Virus genome (UHGV): UHGV-1443735
DNA from: a virus
Length of the DNA: 32,176 nt
Strand: one strand, 5' to 3'
Position 1 is the first letter of the stretch. Each line of letters begins with the position of its first letter. This document shows positions 2,891 through 28,810 of the stretch, in pieces. Under the pieces are notes generated by a model. The model was given only the letters and a program-made list of their open reading frames with translations. It had not been told where the DNA came from and made no database searches. Made by a program: the position numbers and the translations under genes.

Positions 2891-3072
2891 TGGTTGCCTC
2901 CTTTGCGCCACATCGCATTCAGATATTTGTTGTCATTAACAGAACCGAAACTCTTTCTCTTAAGCAATTCCTCTCTCGATGGCATTGGCTTTACGCGTTG
3001 GCGAATAATCATTTCTGCCGGAAGAATGCCGGGATTGTATGCAAGTCCTCTCATGGTAAATTCCTCAGTCAT
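2887..3072 (-). CDS. small hypothetical protein (about 61 aa)
   Basis: ATG at 3072 overlaps the stop of the upstream gene (ATGACTGA). The longer ORF-track version (to 3207) overlaps the neighbouring gene out of frame and is less likely. Confidence 0.4.
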
Positions 3073-3361
3073 TACTGATAGCGCCATAGCGTGAGCGGTA
3101 ATTACGCAGGCGCGGGTCGATATATTCAGGGAAGTGGGTATATGTGGCTTTGCGGAATGGTCGGATTGATGTCTGGTAAATTCGCTCGCGTTCTTCTTTC
3201 TCTGCAAGCCATATACAATGGCGAAATTCCTTTTCCTCTTTCGTTTCCTGCGGTAGCGACATTATCAGGTCGTAGTTTTTTCTGAATTTATCCAGCACCT
3301 CCGATACGGAATTGCCGGAACAGCGGCGCGGGTCATCCGCACCATACAGAGGCGCTGGCAT
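3065..3361 (-). CDS. hypothetical protein (98 aa)
   Basis: ORF immediately downstream of the SSB-like gene; AAGG-like RBS upstream of the ATG. Confidence 0.55.
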
Positions 3362-3384
3362 AATGGGAGCCTTATTTTCAGTAA

Positions 3385-3972
3385 TCAGAAAGGAGGGTAA
3401 TCGTTCTGGCTGTAACCATAATCATCTGCATGATTCTGGCTTACGTTTTTAGAGCGATTGTCTTTATCTTTGAGATTGGCAACCATGTTGGCGATAGTTT
3501 CTGGTTGCTTGCCTTCTGCCTTTTCTTTAAGGGTTTGACCTGTTTGTGCAATAAACGGGATGCGTATTTCCATCTGGTAGCTGTCTGCGCCAGTCTTTTT
3601 GTTTGTGGTTAATACTTTCTGAAGCACTAACCCGATTTTCTTTCCATGAAATTCAGGTGCAACAAATTTACTGGCGGAAACCATATGCTGCGTTAATTGT
3701 CCAATCCCGGCACACCCCATCATGGCGTGAACGACATTTGCGCCAAATTTGTTTTCCGTTCCGTCATTTTTCTGAACACAGACGCTAAGATATTGGATTT
3801 TACGTCCGTCGTCGGATTCGCCAGAAAACTCAATAAATTTGGCTCCTTTTTCTGATTGCTTTAGTTCTGCTTCAGTAATGGTAATGATATGAGCGCCAGT
3901 TTCGTTAATAAAACCACCTTGCCCTGCGGTCAGTGCTGCTTCTTCGTTATAAGTAAAAATCACGTTGCTCAT
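3385..3972 (-). CDS. phage SSB-like ssDNA-binding protein, probable partner of Sak4 (195 aa)
   Basis: C-terminus DDYGYSQNDYPPF resembles the acidic SSB tail ending in (D)IPF. Start overlaps the stop of the upstream ATPase gene (ATGA). The pairing of Sak4-type ATPase with a cognate SSB is known from phage recombination modules. Confidence 0.6.
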   Translation of the reverse strand: MSNVIFTYNEEAALTAGQGGFINETGAHIITITEAELKQSEKGAKFIEFSGESDDGRKIQYLSVCVQKNDGTENKFGANVVHAMMGCAGIGQLTQHMVSASKFVAPEFHGKKIGLVLQKVLTTNKKTGADSYQMEIRIPFIAQTGQTLKEKAEGKQPETIANMVANLKDKDNRSKNVSQNHADDYGYSQNDYPPF

Positions 3973-4649
3973 GCGGCGTTTTCCTTAATTTGATGAACAT
4001 TATTGATGCCGTAGTAATCACAAACAGTGGCATCGACGAAAGAGAGATCGTTATCAATCTCATTGGAATCAAACATTCCCATTGGGGATTTAACAGTGTC
4101 TGCACCGTTGTTTTTCGTGGTGAAAAAGAACTGGTCATCGCGGGTAAGAGTGCGAAGAACTATAGTAAACATGCCTTCGACAGTGATTTTCTCGTCCAGC
4201 ATTTTGCCGATAGTTTTCATTTTCACGCGCCCCATAGGGGTTTCTTCGGTGTGCGCAAGAAAATAGACTCTCAGGTCATCAGGTGCATCCTGTGCAGCCT
4301 TAATCACCTCCCATGCGTGGCGGCCTATCTCAGTAAATTTATCAAACGATTTTTCTTCTGAGCGGCGCATAAACTCATTGCTCATCACATACTGGAAGTC
4401 ATCAACAATAACGATTCTTTTCCCGTATTCGTGAGCACGCTTAATTACGGCAACTATTACGTCCCATTTGTCAGTGGTAACTACGGTTCCTTTTTTTGCT
4501 CTGGCATCCCATGCCAGCCATTCTTTTGATTTAAATGGTAGCGGCTTGCCTATTGGTTTTATAAGTATTGCTTCCTCTGGATTGATATTTCTCATGCTGG
4601 TTGATTTTCCGGTGCCAGACTCACCGAGTATTAATGTCGCAGTTCCCAT
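3969..4649 (-). CDS. sak4: Sak4-like RecA-fold ATPase (AAA_24 family) (226 aa)
   Basis: N-terminal Walker A GESGTGKS and Walker B-like IVIVDDF; size and single-domain architecture match phage Sak4-type recombination ATPases. Confidence 0.75.
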   Translation of the reverse strand: MGTATLILGESGTGKSTSMRNINPEEAILIKPIGKPLPFKSKEWLAWDARAKKGTVVTTDKWDVIVAVIKRAHEYGKRIVIVDDFQYVMSNEFMRRSEEKSFDKFTEIGRHAWEVIKAAQDAPDDLRVYFLAHTEETPMGRVKMKTIGKMLDEKITVEGMFTIVLRTLTRDDQFFFTTKNNGADTVKSPMGMFDSNEIDNDLSFVDATVCDYYGINNVHQIKENAA

Positions 4650-26078: not shown

Positions 26079-26267
26079 ATGGCACGAACAATGCTCTATA
26101 AGCCGGGCAACATGATCACCTGTGGTCAGTTTGCTGTCGATTACATCATTGTTGATGACGAAGAAGTTAAATCTCACCTGAAAAAAGGCTGGGTAAAAAC
26201 TCCTGAAGAAACCGCAACGAAGCAAAAAGTGGCTAAGGCGGAAGAAGATGGCGAAAACGAAGGGTGA
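26079..26267 (+). CDS. small hypothetical protein (about 62 aa)
   Basis: ATG at 26079 with GGGAGAAG RBS; the ORF-track start at 26043 falls inside the terminator. Confidence 0.5.
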   Translation: MARTMLYKPGNMITCGQFAVDYIIVDDEEVKSHLKKGWVKTPEETATKQKVAKAEEDGENEG

Positions 26268-26709
26268 TCTCGTTCTTAAGGCTTTACGAAAAGCCGGGCT
26301 GTATTCCAATGCCACGTTGACAGATGCTGACCCTCAGGCAATTGAAGATGCCATTAATGACCTCGAAGACATGATGGCAGCATGGCAGGCAAAAGGTATC
26401 GAGCTTGGGTATCAGTTTGCTGATACAGAAAACGGCATCATGCCGTTACCTGACGATGATTCAGGTATCCCTGCATGGGCAAATGATGGCGTCGCTTTGA
26501 AACTCGCTGTGCAAGTGTGCATGGATAACGTCATTCAGCCGTCAGACGCTCTCCTTACCGCTGCTGACAGTGCATATCAGACAATCTGTATCGCTTTAAC
26601 CAAAATACCACCACTTGAGCGGCGAAATGACATGCCTCGCGGTAGTGGTAACAAAAGCGCGTTTACGTGGAATCGGTTTTACATCGAGAAAGATGATCCG
26701 AGTACGTGA
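26248..26709 (+). CDS. head completion protein (P22 gp4-like) (153 aa)
   Basis: ...KGDLVLKALRKAGLYSNATLTDADPQAIEDAINDLEDMMAAW... resembles P22 gp4. Confidence 0.8.
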   Translation: MAKTKGDLVLKALRKAGLYSNATLTDADPQAIEDAINDLEDMMAAWQAKGIELGYQFADTENGIMPLPDDDSGIPAWANDGVALKLAVQVCMDNVIQPSDALLTAADSAYQTICIALTKIPPLERRNDMPRGSGNKSAFTWNRFYIEKDDPST

Positions 26710-26718
26710 GGTGAATAA

Positions 26719-26823
26719 ATGCCGATTCAGCAACTTCCGCTTATGAAAGGTGTCGGCAAAGACTTTCGAAACGCCGACTATATCGACTATCTGCCAGTGA
26801 ATATGTTGGCAATTTTGATATAA
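26719..26823 (+). pseudogene. orphaned 5-prime fragment of gene 10 (34 codons then stop)
   Basis: ATG with GAGGTG RBS directly after the gp4 stop encodes [34 protein letters not shown]. This is a P22 gp10-like N-terminus, truncated where the endonuclease cassette begins. Confidence 0.7.
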
Positions 26824-26859
26824 TAAGTACATGAAAAATCGAAACTTTAAGGAGTAGAT

Positions 26860-27444
26860 ATGCTTTCTGAGAATGCTAAAGATATACCTGGATTTGAAGG
26901 TGTTTATGCCGTAACAGAAGATGGCAGGGTGCATTCTCACTCACGTGTTGTTAAGGCTGCGCATGGCAGCACGCAACTCAGAAAGGGGCGCTGGTTAAAG
27001 CCTAAAATAAATCAGGGAAGGGTGCTTTATAATATCGGAGCAAAATGGACTTTTGCCCATCGAATCGTTGCAATGACATTCCTGCCAAATCCTGAAAACA
27101 AGCCTCAGGTAAATCATATTGATGGCAATCCACTCAATAATAACGTCAATAATCTTGAGTGGTGCACTCAAAGCGAAAACATCAAACATGCATACGCCAC
27201 AGGATTAAAGAAACCAATCAAGTTTTTCGGAACCAAGCACCCAAAACACAAGTTGAGTGATGACGATGTTCTTGCAATCAAGTCATCAAAAGAAAGCTTG
27301 TCAGTAATTGCGGCTAAGTACGGGATATCTAAGACCTGGGCAAGTAGGCTAAAGCGTGATGCTAACTGGGTTCATATAAAGGTTGATTCCAATGGCAATA
27401 CAACAACTACCACTAATGAAGGGATTAGGGAAAAGTGCGGTTAA
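26860..27444 (+). CDS. HNH homing endonuclease (NUMOD4 plus HNH_3 type) inserted in the 5-prime end of gene 10
   Basis: AAGGAG RBS; NUMOD4-like IPGFEGVYAVTEDG, HNH motif NHIDGNPLNNNVNNLEW, C-terminal HTH-like region. AT-rich. Paralog-like to the endonuclease at 14122-14631. The last ~18 codons read through the restored gene 10 start in another frame, so the true C-terminus is uncertain. Confidence 0.8.
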   Translation: MLSENAKDIPGFEGVYAVTEDGRVHSHSRVVKAAHGSTQLRKGRWLKPKINQGRVLYNIGAKWTFAHRIVAMTFLPNPENKPQVNHIDGNPLNNNVNNLEWCTQSENIKHAYATGLKKPIKFFGTKHPKHKLSDDDVLAIKSSKESLSVIAAKYGISKTWASRLKRDANWVHIKVDSNGNTTTTTNEGIREKCG

Positions 27445-28810
27445 TGCTGATTATATAGACCAACTTCCAGTCAATCTTTTAGCTACGCCCAAGGAGGTGT
27501 TGAATTCATCGGGATATCTTCGCTCATTTCCGGGCATTGCCAAACGCTCTGATGTGAACGGCGTATCTCGCGGAGTCGAGTACAACATGGCGCAGAATGC
27601 TGTTTATCGCGTGTGTGGTGGCAAACTGTACAAAGGAGAAAGTGAAGTCGGTGACGTCGCCGGAAGTGGTCGCGTATCAATGGCGCATGGTCGGACATCT
27701 CAGGCTGTAGGCGTTAATGGTCAACTGGTCGAGTATCGCTATGATGGCACGGTTAAAACCGTCTCAAACTGGCCTACAGACAGCGGATTCACGCAGTATG
27801 AGTTAGGTTCGGTTCGTGACATTACTCGCTTACGTGGGCGTTATGCGTGGTCAAAAGACGGTACTGATTCATGGTTCATCACTGACCCTGAAGACGAATC
27901 GCATCCTGACCGCTACAGTGCACAATATCGTGCAGAATCGCAGCCGGACGGCATCATCGGCATCGGAACATGGCGAGACTTCATCGTCTGCTTTGGTTCA
28001 TCGACGATTGAATATTTCTCCCTGACTGGTGCAACCACCGTTGGTGCTGCTTTGTATGTCGCACAGCCATCGTTGATGGTGCAGAAAGGCATTGCAGGAA
28101 CCTACTGCAAAACGCAGTTTTCTGATTCGTATGCGTTCATCAGCAATCCGGCAACAGGTGCGCCGTCTGTTTACATCATCGGATCCGGTCAGGTGTCACC
28201 AATCGCCAGCGCGAGCATTGAGAAAATCCTCCGCTCCTACACCGCGGATGAACTGGCTGATGGCGTGATGGAGTCTCTGCGATTTGATGCGCATGAACTG
28301 CTGATTATCCATCTTCCGCGCCATGTCCTCGTGTACGACGCATCTTCAAGCGCCAATGGTCCGCAATGGTGCGTACTGAAAACAGGACTGTATGACGATG
28401 TGTACCGCGCTATCGACTTCATTTACGAAGGCAATCAGATAACGTGCGGCGATAAGCTGGAATCCGTGACCGGGAAATTGCAGTTCGATATCAGCAGCCA
28501 GTACGACAAGCAGCAGGAACACCTGCTGTTTACTCCGTTGTTCAAAGCGGATAACGCCAGAGTGTTCGACCTTGAGGTTGAGTCGTCAACTGGCGTTGCG
28601 CAGTATGCTGACCGCCTGTTCCTCTCTGCAACCACTGACGGCATCAATTACGGACGTGAGCAGATGATTGAGCAGAATGAACCGTTCGTTTACGACAAAC
28701 GCGTTTTGTGGAAGCGAGTCGGGCGCATCAGGAAAAATGTCGGCTTCAAATTGCGCGTTATCACGAAGTCACCTGTCACTCTTTCTGGCTGCCAGATAAG
28801 GATTGAGTAA
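27392..28810 (+). CDS. tail accessory protein (P22 gp10-like), restarted after the endonuclease cassette (about 472 aa)
   Basis: [49 protein letters not shown]... is a gp10-type N-terminus; its first ~30 codons are a recoded duplicate of the orphaned fragment at 26719-26823. Confidence 0.8.

What the first reader, a model, noticed from the sequence alone, without database searches (positions are those of the whole stretch)
26719..27444. Homing-endonuclease cassette splits gene 10 and supplies a recoded replacement 5-prime end
Right after the gp4-like gene, a gp10-type start ([31 protein letters not shown]...) runs 34 codons and stops. An AT-rich NUMOD4/HNH gene with its own AAGGAG RBS follows. 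Gene 10 then restarts at 27392 with a second copy of the same N-terminus ([36 protein letters not shown]...), which is heavily recoded at the nucleotide level (roughly 65% identity by eye). This looks like a homing event that brought donor flanking sequence with it, leaving the old 5-prime end as an orphan while the tail gene stays intact.
Basis: partly seen in the sequence, partly recalled or inferred. Interest (0 to 1): 0.72.

Follow-up and report, generated by a model that had tools for sequence, protein, structure and literature searches.

The report
Homing-endonuclease cassette with spare gene start
A selfish endonuclease gene sits inside an essential tail gene of a P22-like phage, carrying a foreign replacement start for that gene and leaving the old start as a dead stub; this trick was known in fungal mitochondria, but I found no phage description.

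Summary
A 701-bp cassette (26811-27511) is inserted after nt 92 of gene 10.

**What the cassette contains**
- An intact I-HmuI-like NUMOD4/HNH endonuclease gene with its own ribosome-binding site.
- A foreign first 120 nt of gene 10 ("copy B").

**The two gene 10 starts**
- The 34-codon upstream ORF is the native start: 92/92 nt identical to uninterrupted phage CUS-3.
- Copy B is 63% identical in DNA and 80% in protein to the native start.

**Distribution**
- The ATG-to-ATG distance (673 bp) equals the length difference from uninterrupted relatives.
- The same arrangement occurs in 18 of about 920 E. coli genomes with this region, 28 IMG/VR contigs and Salmonella phage UPF_BP1.
- It sits beside at least four gp4 types.

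**Population evidence**
- Cassette diversity is about 0.006, against 0.04-0.07 in both flanks, with steps exactly at the junctions.
- Flanking SNPs 4 nt away are fully shuffled.
- This indicates one origin and recent horizontal spread.

**Origin**
- A distant phage (L199) has a related endonuclease cleanly between gp4 and a copy-B-like gene 10.
- Copy B is therefore the endonuclease's habitual neighbour, not a purpose-made recoding.

Cleavage and homing are inferred, not shown. RefSeq already annotates the stub as a pseudogene. The closest described analogue is the fungal mitochondrial mobile-ORF gene hybrid.

The parts
26248..26709 (+). gp4 (head-tail adaptor) gene, the left neighbour. It is not part of the mobile unit.
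   Evidence: Pfam P22_Tail-4, E 7e-41. Cassette-bearing loci have at least four different gp4 types, 100%, about 40%, 41% and 42% aa identity to this one.
26719..26823 (+). Orphan 5' end of gene 10 (34 codons plus stop). Bases 26719-26810 are native gene 10 nt 1-92. The last codons and the stop come from the insert. It keeps the native ribosome-binding site GAGGTG. It is the proposed left homology arm.
   Evidence: 92/92 nt identical to uninterrupted CUS-3 gene 10. Pfam Phage_stabilise 1-28, E 7e-11. PGAP annotates it as a truncated pseudogene. Its polymorphisms are those of native HEG-less alleles.
26810..26812 (.). Left junction of the insert (after gene 10 nt 92; ambiguous to nt 94 because some native alleles read GGCAAC).
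   Evidence: Alignment with CUS-3 and 18 HEG-less alleles. The junction is identical in all 30 cassette loci examined.
26811..27511 (+). The 701-bp mobile cassette: leader, endonuclease gene and foreign gene 10 nt 1-120.
   Evidence: Nucleotide diversity is 0.005-0.0065 here, against 0.043 on the left and 0.069 on the right, among 23 haplotypes. It is at least 98.9% identical in 18 E. coli genomes and in Salmonella phage UPF_BP1. G+C is 0.41.
26849..26854 (+). AAGGAG ribosome-binding site of the endonuclease gene, 5 nt before its ATG.
   Evidence: Read directly from the sequence.
26860..27444 (+). Free-standing NUMOD4/HNH homing-endonuclease gene (194 aa). Homology to relatives ends near residue 174 (about 27380). 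The last 17 codons are read-through into gene 10 in another frame.
   Evidence: Pfam HNH_3 and NUMOD4. PDB 1U3E I-HmuI, E 4.6e-8. phrog_59, E 9e-52. Alignment with three relatives. The ORF is intact in 29 of 30 loci.
27378..27382 (+). Possible weak ribosome-binding site (AAAGG) for the replacement gene 10 start, 9 nt before the ATG.
   Evidence: Read from the sequence. This is an inference only.
27392..27511 (+). Copy B: the foreign replacement for gene 10 nt 1-120. Presumed resistant to the endonuclease.
   Evidence: 76/120 nt and 32/40 aa identical to native CUS-3. Of the 30 shared-residue codons (Met excluded), 21 use a different codon. It is 75-78% identical to the 5' ends of L199 and L200. 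nt 93-120 are identical in 22 of 23 cassette haplotypes and match no native allele.
27392..28810 (+). Complete functional-looking gene 10 (472 aa): copy B joined to a native-type body.
   Evidence: Pfam Phage_stabilise 1-469 of 469, E 3.9e-297. The body is 94-95% identical to CUS-3.

Best explanation
This is a free-standing homing-endonuclease cassette lodged inside the 5' end of the essential tail gene 10 of a P22-like (Lederbergvirus) phage.

**Shown**
- The insert is 701 bp. It enters after gene 10 nt 92 and carries an intact I-HmuI-like NUMOD4/HNH gene followed by a foreign gene 10 nt 1-120.
- The foreign start joins the native body near nt 120, so a full-length gene 10 is rebuilt.
- The native nt 1-92 stay upstream as a 34-codon stub.
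- All copies share the same junctions, so the arrangement arose once.
- The cassette is about ten times less diverse than its flanks.
- It sits on every kind of flanking haplotype, beside at least four gp4 modules, in phages of both E. coli and Salmonella. It has therefore moved horizontally and recently.

**Inferred origin**
- The endonuclease and copy B are old neighbours from a divergent P22-like lineage, where the endonuclease sits cleanly between gp4 and gene 10. L199 shows that layout.
- On entering the E. coli-type lineage, the right end recombined homologously near nt 120.
- The left end had no homologous gp4 to pair with. It was joined illegitimately at the broken end inside gene 10, and that created the stub.

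**Inferred mechanism**
- The enzyme cuts or nicks native gene 10 at about nt 92-120.
- The cassette allele is immune, because the stub ends at nt 92 and copy B differs at many positions there.
- The break is repaired from the cassette allele, with the stub as left homology arm and the gene 10 body as right arm.
- Because both arms are gene 10 sequence, the cassette can enter any phage with a conserved gene 10, whatever its gp4 module.
- Where gp4 overlaps gene 10, the stub also preserves the end of gp4.

The confidence of 0.62 is for the whole package including active homing. The anatomy, the single origin and the horizontal spread alone I would put above 0.9.
For: **Anatomy**
- Identities of all four ORFs.
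- The orphan is 92/92 nt identical to CUS-3, while copy B is about 63% identical to nt 120 and 93-95% after that.
- The 673-bp ATG-to-ATG distance equals the size difference from uninterrupted relatives.

**Endonuclease type and integrity**
- HNH_3 plus NUMOD4.
- Match to I-HmuI, PDB 1U3E, E 4.6e-8.
- A conserved NH...N...NLEW.T...N..H core in four relatives.
- The ORF is intact in 29 of 30 loci.
- No intron or other RNA family is present.

**Sporadic, single-origin, recent spread**
- Present in 18 of about 920 E. coli genomes with this region, all at least 98.9% identical.
- Present in 28 IMG/VR contigs, always with the same orphan offset.
- Present in Salmonella phage UPF_BP1, 98.9% identical in the cassette but only about 94% in the adjoining gene 10.
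- Diversity is 0.005-0.0065 in the cassette, 0.043 in the orphan and 0.069 in gene 10 nt 121-320.
- Gene 10 bodies of cassette carriers are not a clade: 19 of 23 have a cassette-free nearest neighbour.
- Flank diversity within carriers equals that within and between non-carriers, even in the first 50 nt.
- All four allele combinations occur at nt 88, 4 nt from the left junction, and at nt 141-156 on the right.

**Copy B is the endonuclease's habitual neighbour**
- L199 has gp4, a 22-nt gap, a related endonuclease (41% aa) and a copy-B-like gene 10, with the same overlap of about 50 nt and no orphan.
- In L199 the first 120 nt of gene 10 are 60-75% identical to its endonuclease-free sisters, but the next 480 nt are about 90% identical.

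**The same principle holds at the other end of gene 10**
- Endonucleases inserted between genes 10 and 26 are tied to a 300-nt 3' segment that is 33-49% diverged.

**A predicted loss product exists**
- E. coli AVS0578 has no endonuclease. Its gene 10 is native through nt 56 and identical to copy B from nt 58-60 to nt 120.
Against: - No cleavage site, cleavage activity or biased inheritance has been shown. All of the mechanism is inferred from sequence.
- The cassette is rare, at 2% of E. coli prophages with this region. That is low for an efficient drive.
- I see no co-conversion gradient. Linkage with the flanks is absent at every distance. This fits very short conversion tracts, but it also fits ordinary frequent recombination in these mosaic phages.
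- The chimeric orphan of UPF_BP1 cannot be credited to homing. A phage with an uninterrupted gene 10 (L045) already has the same mosaic in its native gene 10.
- From my own knowledge, I-HmuI-type enzymes are nickases, which may drive homing less efficiently.
- No close ancestor of this endonuclease in a clean setting was found. The nearest clean example is only 41% identical.
- L200 shows that copy-B-like starts can exist without any endonuclease.
Confidence: 0.62

Rival explanations
1. Passive passenger. The cassette was inserted once and the endonuclease no longer drives anything. It has been carried onto many backgrounds by the ordinary, very frequent homologous recombination among P22-like prophages.
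For: - It is rare, at 2% of E. coli prophages with this region.
- There is no linkage between any flanking SNP and the cassette at any distance, so recombination is rampant throughout gene 10.
- One decayed copy exists in E. coli ES5.
- One recombinant has lost the endonuclease, AVS0578.
Against: - The ORF is intact in 29 of 30 loci, with the catalytic core conserved.
- The cassette is ten-fold less diverse than its flanks, yet it is present beside at least four gp4 types and in two host genera. That is a fast spread for a neutral 700-bp load in a headful-packaged genome.
- Exchange points lie within 4 nt of the left edge, which uniform recombination would rarely give.
Confidence: 0.2
2. Competition weapon. 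The endonuclease is kept mainly because it damages the gene 10 region of co-infecting or resident rival P22-like phages (interference competition). Copy B acts as the self-protecting allele, and spread of the gene is secondary.
For: - The target would be an essential virion gene, and the carrier has a divergent copy of exactly that segment.
- Three endonuclease families cluster around gene 10, each tied to a divergent gene 10 end.
- Such a role for phage endonucleases has been proposed for other phages (my own knowledge).
Against: - Nothing in the sequence separates this from homing. Both need the same cleavage and the same immunity.
- Rarity argues against a strong competitive benefit.
Confidence: 0.12
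3. Local tandem duplication of the gene 10 start, followed by divergence in place and later insertion of an endonuclease gene between the copies.
For: The two copies are direct repeats in the same orientation and 673 bp apart.
Against: - One copy is 100% identical to native alleles, while the other is saturated at synonymous sites.
- The cassette as a whole is very young, with diversity of about 0.006.
- Copy B groups with the 5' ends of L199 and L200, not with native alleles.
- L199 has the endonuclease plus a copy-B-like start and no duplicate.
Confidence: 0.02
4. The short upstream ORF is a conserved independent small gene under selection, not a gene 10 fragment.
For: It is open in all 30 loci, and nearly all of its polymorphisms are synonymous.
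Against: - The same polymorphisms segregate in intact gene 10 of phages with an uninterrupted gene 10. They are therefore inherited from functional alleles by recombination.
- Phages without the cassette have no such separate ORF.
- Its last three codons and its stop come from the insert.
Confidence: 0.02

Closest known systems
Fungal mitochondrial mobile-ORF 'gene hybrids' (Allomyces macrogynus atp6; Glomus atp6, atp9, cox2, nad3), as described in PMC3630166, which cites Paquin et al. 1994
   Same: - A mobile endonuclease ORF travels with a foreign copy of one end of the host gene.
- The foreign end takes over, and the native end stays behind as an unused duplicate.
- The inserted and native ends are about 64-81% identical in DNA but much closer in protein. 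Here the figures are 63% DNA and 80% protein.
- The native end matches close relatives, and the donor cannot be pinpointed.
   Different: - It is a mirror image. Here the 5' end is replaced and the orphan lies upstream, whereas in mitochondria the 3' end is replaced and the orphan lies downstream.
- The endonuclease here has its own ribosome-binding site and start, and is not fused in phase to the host gene.
- The enzyme family is HNH, not LAGLIDADG or GIY-YIG.
- The host is a temperate phage, not an organelle.
Intronless homing by free-standing phage endonucleases (T4 SegF, SegG, SegB, MobE); reviewed in PMC2988022, PMC2330249 and PMC2790892 (listed, not read in detail here)
   Same: - The endonuclease gene is free-standing, with no intron or intein.
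- It sits next to the gene it presumably targets.
- The carrier allele differs in sequence in the presumed target region.
- Distribution among related phages is sporadic.
   Different: - Those genes sit between intact genes and leave no duplicate. Here the insert lies inside the coding sequence and brings a replacement start.
- T4 crosses show graded co-conversion of flanks. Here no gradient is visible in population data.
- Cleavage has been shown for the T4 enzymes and not for this one.
I-HmuI (SPO1 intron endonuclease, PDB 1U3E) and I-HmuI-like HNH enzymes of lactococcal Skunavirus phages (PMC12724721)
   Same: It has the same domain make-up, an N-terminal NUMOD4-type module plus an HNH_3 core. 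The alignment covers residues 7-116, E 4.6e-8.
   Different: - I-HmuI is intron-encoded, and this gene is free-standing.
- Only the N-terminal 116 residues align, and the C-terminal DNA-binding part is unrelated at sequence level.
- Specificity is unknown.
Endonuclease-split phage genes (for example nrdD of Felix O1-like phages, PMC4837284; nrdA of Aeromonas phage Aeh1, from my own knowledge)
   Same: A homing-endonuclease gene lies inside the boundaries of a conserved phage gene, and the phage remains viable.
   Different: In those cases the gene is truly in two pieces that work together and nothing is duplicated. Here the downstream gene is complete and the upstream piece is redundant.
Synthetic 'home-and-rescue' and 'cleave-and-rescue' gene drives (my own knowledge, not checked in the paper library)
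   Same: A nuclease targets an essential gene. The drive element carries a recoded, cleavage-resistant version of the targeted part, so carriers stay viable.
   Different: Those are engineered Cas9 systems in insects. This is a natural HNH enzyme in a phage, and the 'recoded' part is a borrowed natural allele.

Membership tests
Free-standing HNH homing endonuclease gene (I-HmuI-like) | HNH catalytic core present and intact | tested here: met
   Pfam HNH_3, E 8.7e-11, residues 65-107. Aligns to I-HmuI 1U3E. H86, N98, N107 and H110 are invariant among four relatives.
Free-standing HNH homing endonuclease gene (I-HmuI-like) | N-terminal NUMOD4-type DNA-binding module | tested here: met
   Pfam NUMOD4, E 3.3e-8, residues 7-53.
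Free-standing HNH homing endonuclease gene (I-HmuI-like) | Not embedded in a self-splicing intron or an intein | tested here: met
   No Rfam intron in 26200-28000 at E up to 1. It has its own ribosome-binding site and ATG. Three stop codons lie between the orphan and the endonuclease ORF, and gene 10 is in another frame.
Free-standing HNH homing endonuclease gene (I-HmuI-like) | Sporadic presence among otherwise collinear, closely related genomes | tested here: met
   18 of about 920 E. coli genomes. Carriers are scattered among non-carriers in gene 10 distance.
Free-standing HNH homing endonuclease gene (I-HmuI-like) | Site-specific cleavage of the endonuclease-free allele, and resistance of the carrier allele | not testable with these tools
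   Only indirect evidence: native nt 93-120 are absent from the orphan and differ at 8 or more of 28 positions in copy B.
Free-standing HNH homing endonuclease gene (I-HmuI-like) | Super-Mendelian inheritance with co-conversion of flanking markers | tested here: inconclusive
   Population proxy only. The cassette is young and sits on all backgrounds, but there is no gradient of linkage in the flanks.
Mitochondrial-type mobile-ORF gene hybrid | Endonuclease ORF travels with a foreign replacement end of the host gene | tested here: met
   Copy B is always linked to the endonuclease (28 of 28 IMG/VR contigs). It is foreign by divergence.
Mitochondrial-type mobile-ORF gene hybrid | Native end retained as a redundant duplicate identical to that of close relatives | tested here: met
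   The orphan is 92/92 nt identical to CUS-3.
Mitochondrial-type mobile-ORF gene hybrid | Replacement is the 3' end, read in phase with the host gene, often fused to the endonuclease ORF | tested here: not met
   Here the 5' end is replaced. The endonuclease has its own start, and its stop lies 53 nt inside gene 10 in a different frame.
Group I intron- or intein-borne endonuclease | Ribozyme fold or in-frame protein-splicing domain around the endonuclease | tested here: not met
   No intron family hit. The duplicated, complete N-terminus makes splicing unnecessary.

The most novel reading that the evidence does not exclude
The stub may not be mere debris. It may be the feature that made this cassette successful.

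- **Portable left homology arm.** Because the endonuclease is embedded within gene 10 sequence on both sides, it escapes the gp4/gene 10 mosaic boundary. It can then home into any P22-like phage regardless of its gp4 module, and it keeps overlapping gp4 ends intact.
- **Arms race at the gene ends.** Three endonuclease families flank gene 10, each tied to a saturated-divergence gene end. This suggests that homing endonucleases drive the extreme synonymous divergence of the termini of this essential tail gene. That would be a natural 'cleave-and-rescue' arms race in temperate phages.
Probability: 0.3. Interest if true: 0.65.

Novelty: new variant of a known kind. Interest (0 to 1): 0.5.

Why it matters
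**A third way for an endonuclease to live inside an essential gene.** Introns and inteins are the two known ways. This cassette shows another: bring a spare, resistant copy of the part you interrupt.

**A new setting for a known trick.** It is described for fungal mitochondrial genes, but I found no description for phages.

**A concrete, testable system in well-studied phages.** P22, Sf6, HK620 and CUS-3 are natural cassette-free targets. UPF_BP1 and the E. coli MS 115-1 prophage are natural donors. The system can address three questions:
- how free-standing endonucleases cross mosaic module boundaries;
- how short conversion tracts can be;
- whether endonucleases shape the unusual divergence at the ends of gene 10.

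**A practical use for annotation.** The 'partial gp10 pseudogene' that pipelines flag is a footprint of this element, not a sign of a defective prophage.

Tried and rejected
1. **Selection on the orphan peptide.** Nearly all orphan polymorphisms are synonymous. But the same variants segregate in intact gene 10 of phages with an uninterrupted gene 10, so this is not evidence of function.
2. **UPF_BP1's chimeric orphan as proof of a homing crossover.** Dropped, because L045 (uninterrupted gene 10) has the same Salmonella/E. coli mosaic natively.
3. **'More than saturated' recoding.** Nei-Gojobori pS of 0.96 looked extreme. A direct codon count gives 21 of 30 shared residues with a different codon, which is about what random synonymous choice gives. 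Natural allele classes are just as diverged from each other in codons 1-40.
4. **Regulatory RNA structure.** I folded the regions around the endonuclease ribosome-binding site, the copy B start and the native start. Energies are no better than shuffles, with z from -0.7 to +0.4. The terminator-like hairpin at the left junction is weak and was not pursued.
5. **Intron hypothesis.** There are no Rfam hits except a chance MicA match on the other strand, E 0.96.
6. **Source of copy B.**
   - Exact 30-32-mers in IMG/VR occur only with the cassette.
   - The best phage protein match, NM-3, is only 66% identical in DNA.
   - GTDB species genomes hold no endonuclease closer than 49%.
   - Only the degenerate protein-level pattern found relatives, L199 and L200.
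7. **Literature.** The ε34, UPF_BP1 and Anderson-phage papers mention other endonucleases but not this one. The ICP1 nuclease-boundary paper does not describe replacement gene ends.
Full report
**1. What is in the window**

- The region reads gp4 (26248-26709), a 34-codon ORF (26719-26823), a 194-codon ORF (26860-27444) and a 472-codon gene 10 (27392-28810).
- Pfam assigns these to P22_Tail-4, Phage_stabilise positions 1-28, HNH_3 plus NUMOD4, and full-length Phage_stabilise respectively.
- The two gene 10 N-termini share 24 of 34 residues and 63 of 105 bases.
- G+C falls to 0.41 in the insert, against 0.52 in the gene 10 body.

**2. Which copy is native**

- Megablast against phage and E. coli collections finds many relatives with an uninterrupted gp4-gene 10 junction.
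- These span 1080 bp where the window spans 1753 bp. The 673-bp difference equals the distance between the two ATGs.
- Aligned to phage CUS-3, the upstream copy is 92/92 nt identical and then departs abruptly at window 26810/26811.
- The downstream copy (copy B) is 76/120 nt identical to CUS-3 and becomes 93-95% identical from 27512 onwards.
- The insert is thus 701 bp (26811-27511) and replaces native gene 10 nt 93-120.
- NCBI's pipeline already annotates the upstream piece as a truncated 'packaged DNA stabilization protein' pseudogene next to an 'HNH endonuclease' in E. coli MS 115-1, which is 99.8% identical to the window.

**3. The endonuclease**

- It aligns to I-HmuI (PDB 1U3E) over residues 7-116 and to PHROG 59.
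- An alignment with three relatives shows the HNH core invariant. Homology ends near residue 174.
- The last 17 codons simply run into gene 10 in another frame until a stop is met.
- There is no intron or other RNA family and no significant RNA structure at the start sites.
- The gene is free-standing, with AAGGAG 5 nt upstream of its ATG.

**4. Distribution**

- The 701-bp cassette is in 18 of 5426 complete E. coli genomes, out of about 920 that have this gp4/gene 10 region. All copies are at least 98.9% identical.
- Among isolated phages it is found only in Salmonella phage UPF_BP1, at 98.9%.
- In IMG/VR, 28 contigs carry it, including the window's own contig. All have the orphan at the same offset.
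- These contigs have at least four gp4 types (100%, 40%, 41% and 42% protein identity) and varied gp5 and gp26.
- The ORF is intact in 29 of 30 loci. E. coli ES5 has a broken copy.
- GTDB species representatives hold nothing closer than 49%.

**5. Population structure**

- Among 23 distinct haplotypes, nucleotide diversity is 0.043 in the orphan, 0.005-0.0065 across the cassette and 0.069 in the next 200 nt of gene 10. The steps fall exactly at the two junctions.
- UPF_BP1 shows the same pattern pairwise: about 1% divergence in the cassette and 5-6% from 27518 onwards.
- Gene 10 bodies of carriers are not a clade, since 19 of 23 have a non-carrier as nearest neighbour.
- Diversity in the flanks is the same within carriers, within non-carriers and between them, even in the 50 nt next to each junction.
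- All four allele combinations occur at nt 88, 4 nt from the left junction (T/C is 7/16 in carriers and 43/36 in non-carriers). They also occur at nt 141-156 on the right.
- Copy B nt 93-120 is invariant in 22 of 23 carriers and differs from every native allele.
- My reading is that a single, recent insertion has been placed on essentially every background haplotype, with exchange points right at its edges.

**6. Cautions**

- Orphan polymorphisms are almost all synonymous. The same variants segregate in intact gene 10, so they reflect inheritance from functional alleles and not selection on the peptide.
- The UPF_BP1 orphan is Salmonella-like to nt 51 and E. coli-like from nt 54. L045, whose gene 10 is uninterrupted, has the same mosaic natively, so this is not proof of a homing crossover.

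**7. Where copy B comes from**

- Exact copy B words occur only with the cassette. No phage has a closer 5' end.
- A degenerate pattern for the copy-B-specific peptide [12 protein letters not shown] found four more loci.
- L199 is a P22-like phage whose gene 10 is about 72% identical to the window's.
  - It has a gp4 stop, then 22 nt, then a related endonuclease (41% identity), then a copy-B-like gene 10. The endonuclease and gene 10 overlap by about 50 nt, as in the window.
  - It has no orphan.
  - Relative to its endonuclease-free sisters L198 and L201, the first 120 nt of L199 gene 10 are 60-75% identical, while nt 121-600 are about 90% identical.
  - The end of gp4, which overlaps gene 10 in the sisters, is also replaced.
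- L200 has no endonuclease but has a copy-B-like nt 1-92 (78%) on an E. coli-type body.
- Copy B is therefore a natural allele class that travels with this endonuclease family. Its synonymous divergence is saturated, but no more so than between natural classes.

**8. Loss product**

- E. coli AVS0578 has no endonuclease. Its gene 10 is native through nt 56 and identical to copy B from nt 58-60 to nt 120.
- This is what recombination between the orphan and copy B at the shared GATTATAT would leave.
- Under the model, it would be an endonuclease-free but resistant allele.

**9. The other end of gene 10**

- Two further endonuclease families (54% and 42% identity to this one) sit between genes 10 and 26 in other phages. 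Three contigs carry both sites occupied.
- Carriers of those have a gene 10 3' segment of about 300 nt that is 33-49% diverged from non-carriers. There is no differentiation upstream of that segment and no orphan.
- The 54% family shares 86-88% DNA identity with the window's endonuclease over 26836-26999.
- This supports the general rule that each endonuclease here is tied to a divergent, presumably resistant, end of gene 10.

**10. Mechanism**

- Shown: the anatomy, the single origin, the youth and horizontal spread of the cassette, and the link between endonuclease and divergent gene end.
- Inferred:
  - The enzyme cleaves native gene 10 near nt 92-120.
  - The orphan arose when the element entered a lineage with a non-homologous gp4 and the left end was joined illegitimately at the break.
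  - Since then the orphan has acted as the left homology arm, making the element independent of the gp4 module and harmless where gp4 overlaps gene 10. That overlap is 41 nt in ST160 and UPF_BP1.
- The main rival is passive carriage by general recombination, which the absence of any linkage gradient does not exclude.

**11. Comparison with known systems**

- I found no description of this cassette in the searchable literature.
- The closest described phenomenon is the mobile-ORF gene hybrid of fungal mitochondria. There, an endonuclease ORF brings a foreign 3' end that is 64-81% identical in DNA, and the native 3' end stays behind.
- The phage case is its mirror image, with a different enzyme family and independent translation of the endonuclease.
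- It works like intronless homing in T4 but differs by lying inside the gene and leaving a duplicate.
- It is a new variant of a known kind and of moderate interest.

Noticed in passing
L004:3412-3957; L036-L047 and L056-L060 about 3001-3540; the empty site in the window is at 28810: Two other NUMOD4/HNH endonuclease families (54% and 42% identity to the window's) sit between genes 10 and 26 in related phages. Carriers have a 3' segment of gene 10, about 300 nt long, that is 33-49% diverged from non-carriers. It is a clean replacement without an orphan. L029, L031 and L032 carry endonucleases at both ends of gene 10.
   Followed up: partly
window 26836-26999: The 24 nt upstream of the endonuclease ATG and the first 140 nt of the ORF are 86-88% identical in DNA to the 54%-family endonuclease at the gene 10/26 site. 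The rest of the two genes is far more diverged. This suggests exchange of the N-terminal module between endonucleases.
   Followed up: no
L006:1950-2070 (E. coli AVS0578): This gene 10 has no endonuclease. It is native through nt 56 and identical to copy B from nt 58-60 to nt 120. It is probably a deletion by recombination between orphan and copy B, and it was the only such allele among 5426 E. coli genomes.
   Followed up: partly
L199 (reverse complement) 1-740: In a distant P22-like phage, a related endonuclease sits cleanly between gp4 and gene 10. Both the end of gp4 and the first 120 nt of gene 10 are replaced by divergent versions. Only 685 nt upstream of gene 10 were available.
   Followed up: partly
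L200 (reverse complement) 4049-4170: This gene 10 has no endonuclease. Its first 92 nt or so are copy-B-like (78%), while the rest is E. coli type (91-92%). The mosaic boundary falls at the same place as the orphan's truncation.
   Followed up: no
window 27392-27511 and homologous positions in L002, L007, L199, L200: Codons 1-40 of gene 10 are saturated for synonymous differences between all natural allele classes (pS 0.64-1.0), whereas codons 41-300 show pS 0.2-0.5 among the E. coli- and Salmonella-type alleles (0.73-0.76 against the distant L199). The gp4/gene 10 module boundary seems to lie about 100 nt inside gene 10.
   Followed up: partly
L005:1652-2235 (E. coli ES5): The endonuclease ORF is broken into two pieces (83 aa, then a second ORF), while the cassette is otherwise 99.6% identical. 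This is a decaying copy.
   Followed up: no
window 26792-26821: A terminator-like hairpin (TGCCAGTGAATATGTTGGCA followed by ATTTTGATAT) is formed across the left junction. The stem is native and the T-run comes from the insert. The RNA fold is no better than shuffles.
   Followed up: partly
L007:2042-2542 and L008:3449-3949: In Salmonella-type phages (ST160, UPF_BP1), the gp4 coding sequence overlaps the first 41 nt of gene 10. In UPF_BP1 that overlap is with the orphan, which therefore still encodes the end of gp4.
   Followed up: partly
E. coli STEC306-308 and ET729 (hits H49-H51, H53): These cassette-bearing genomes have a second place matching the gp4/gene 10 query. This may be a co-resident P22-like prophage with a native, uncut gene 10.
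   Followed up: no
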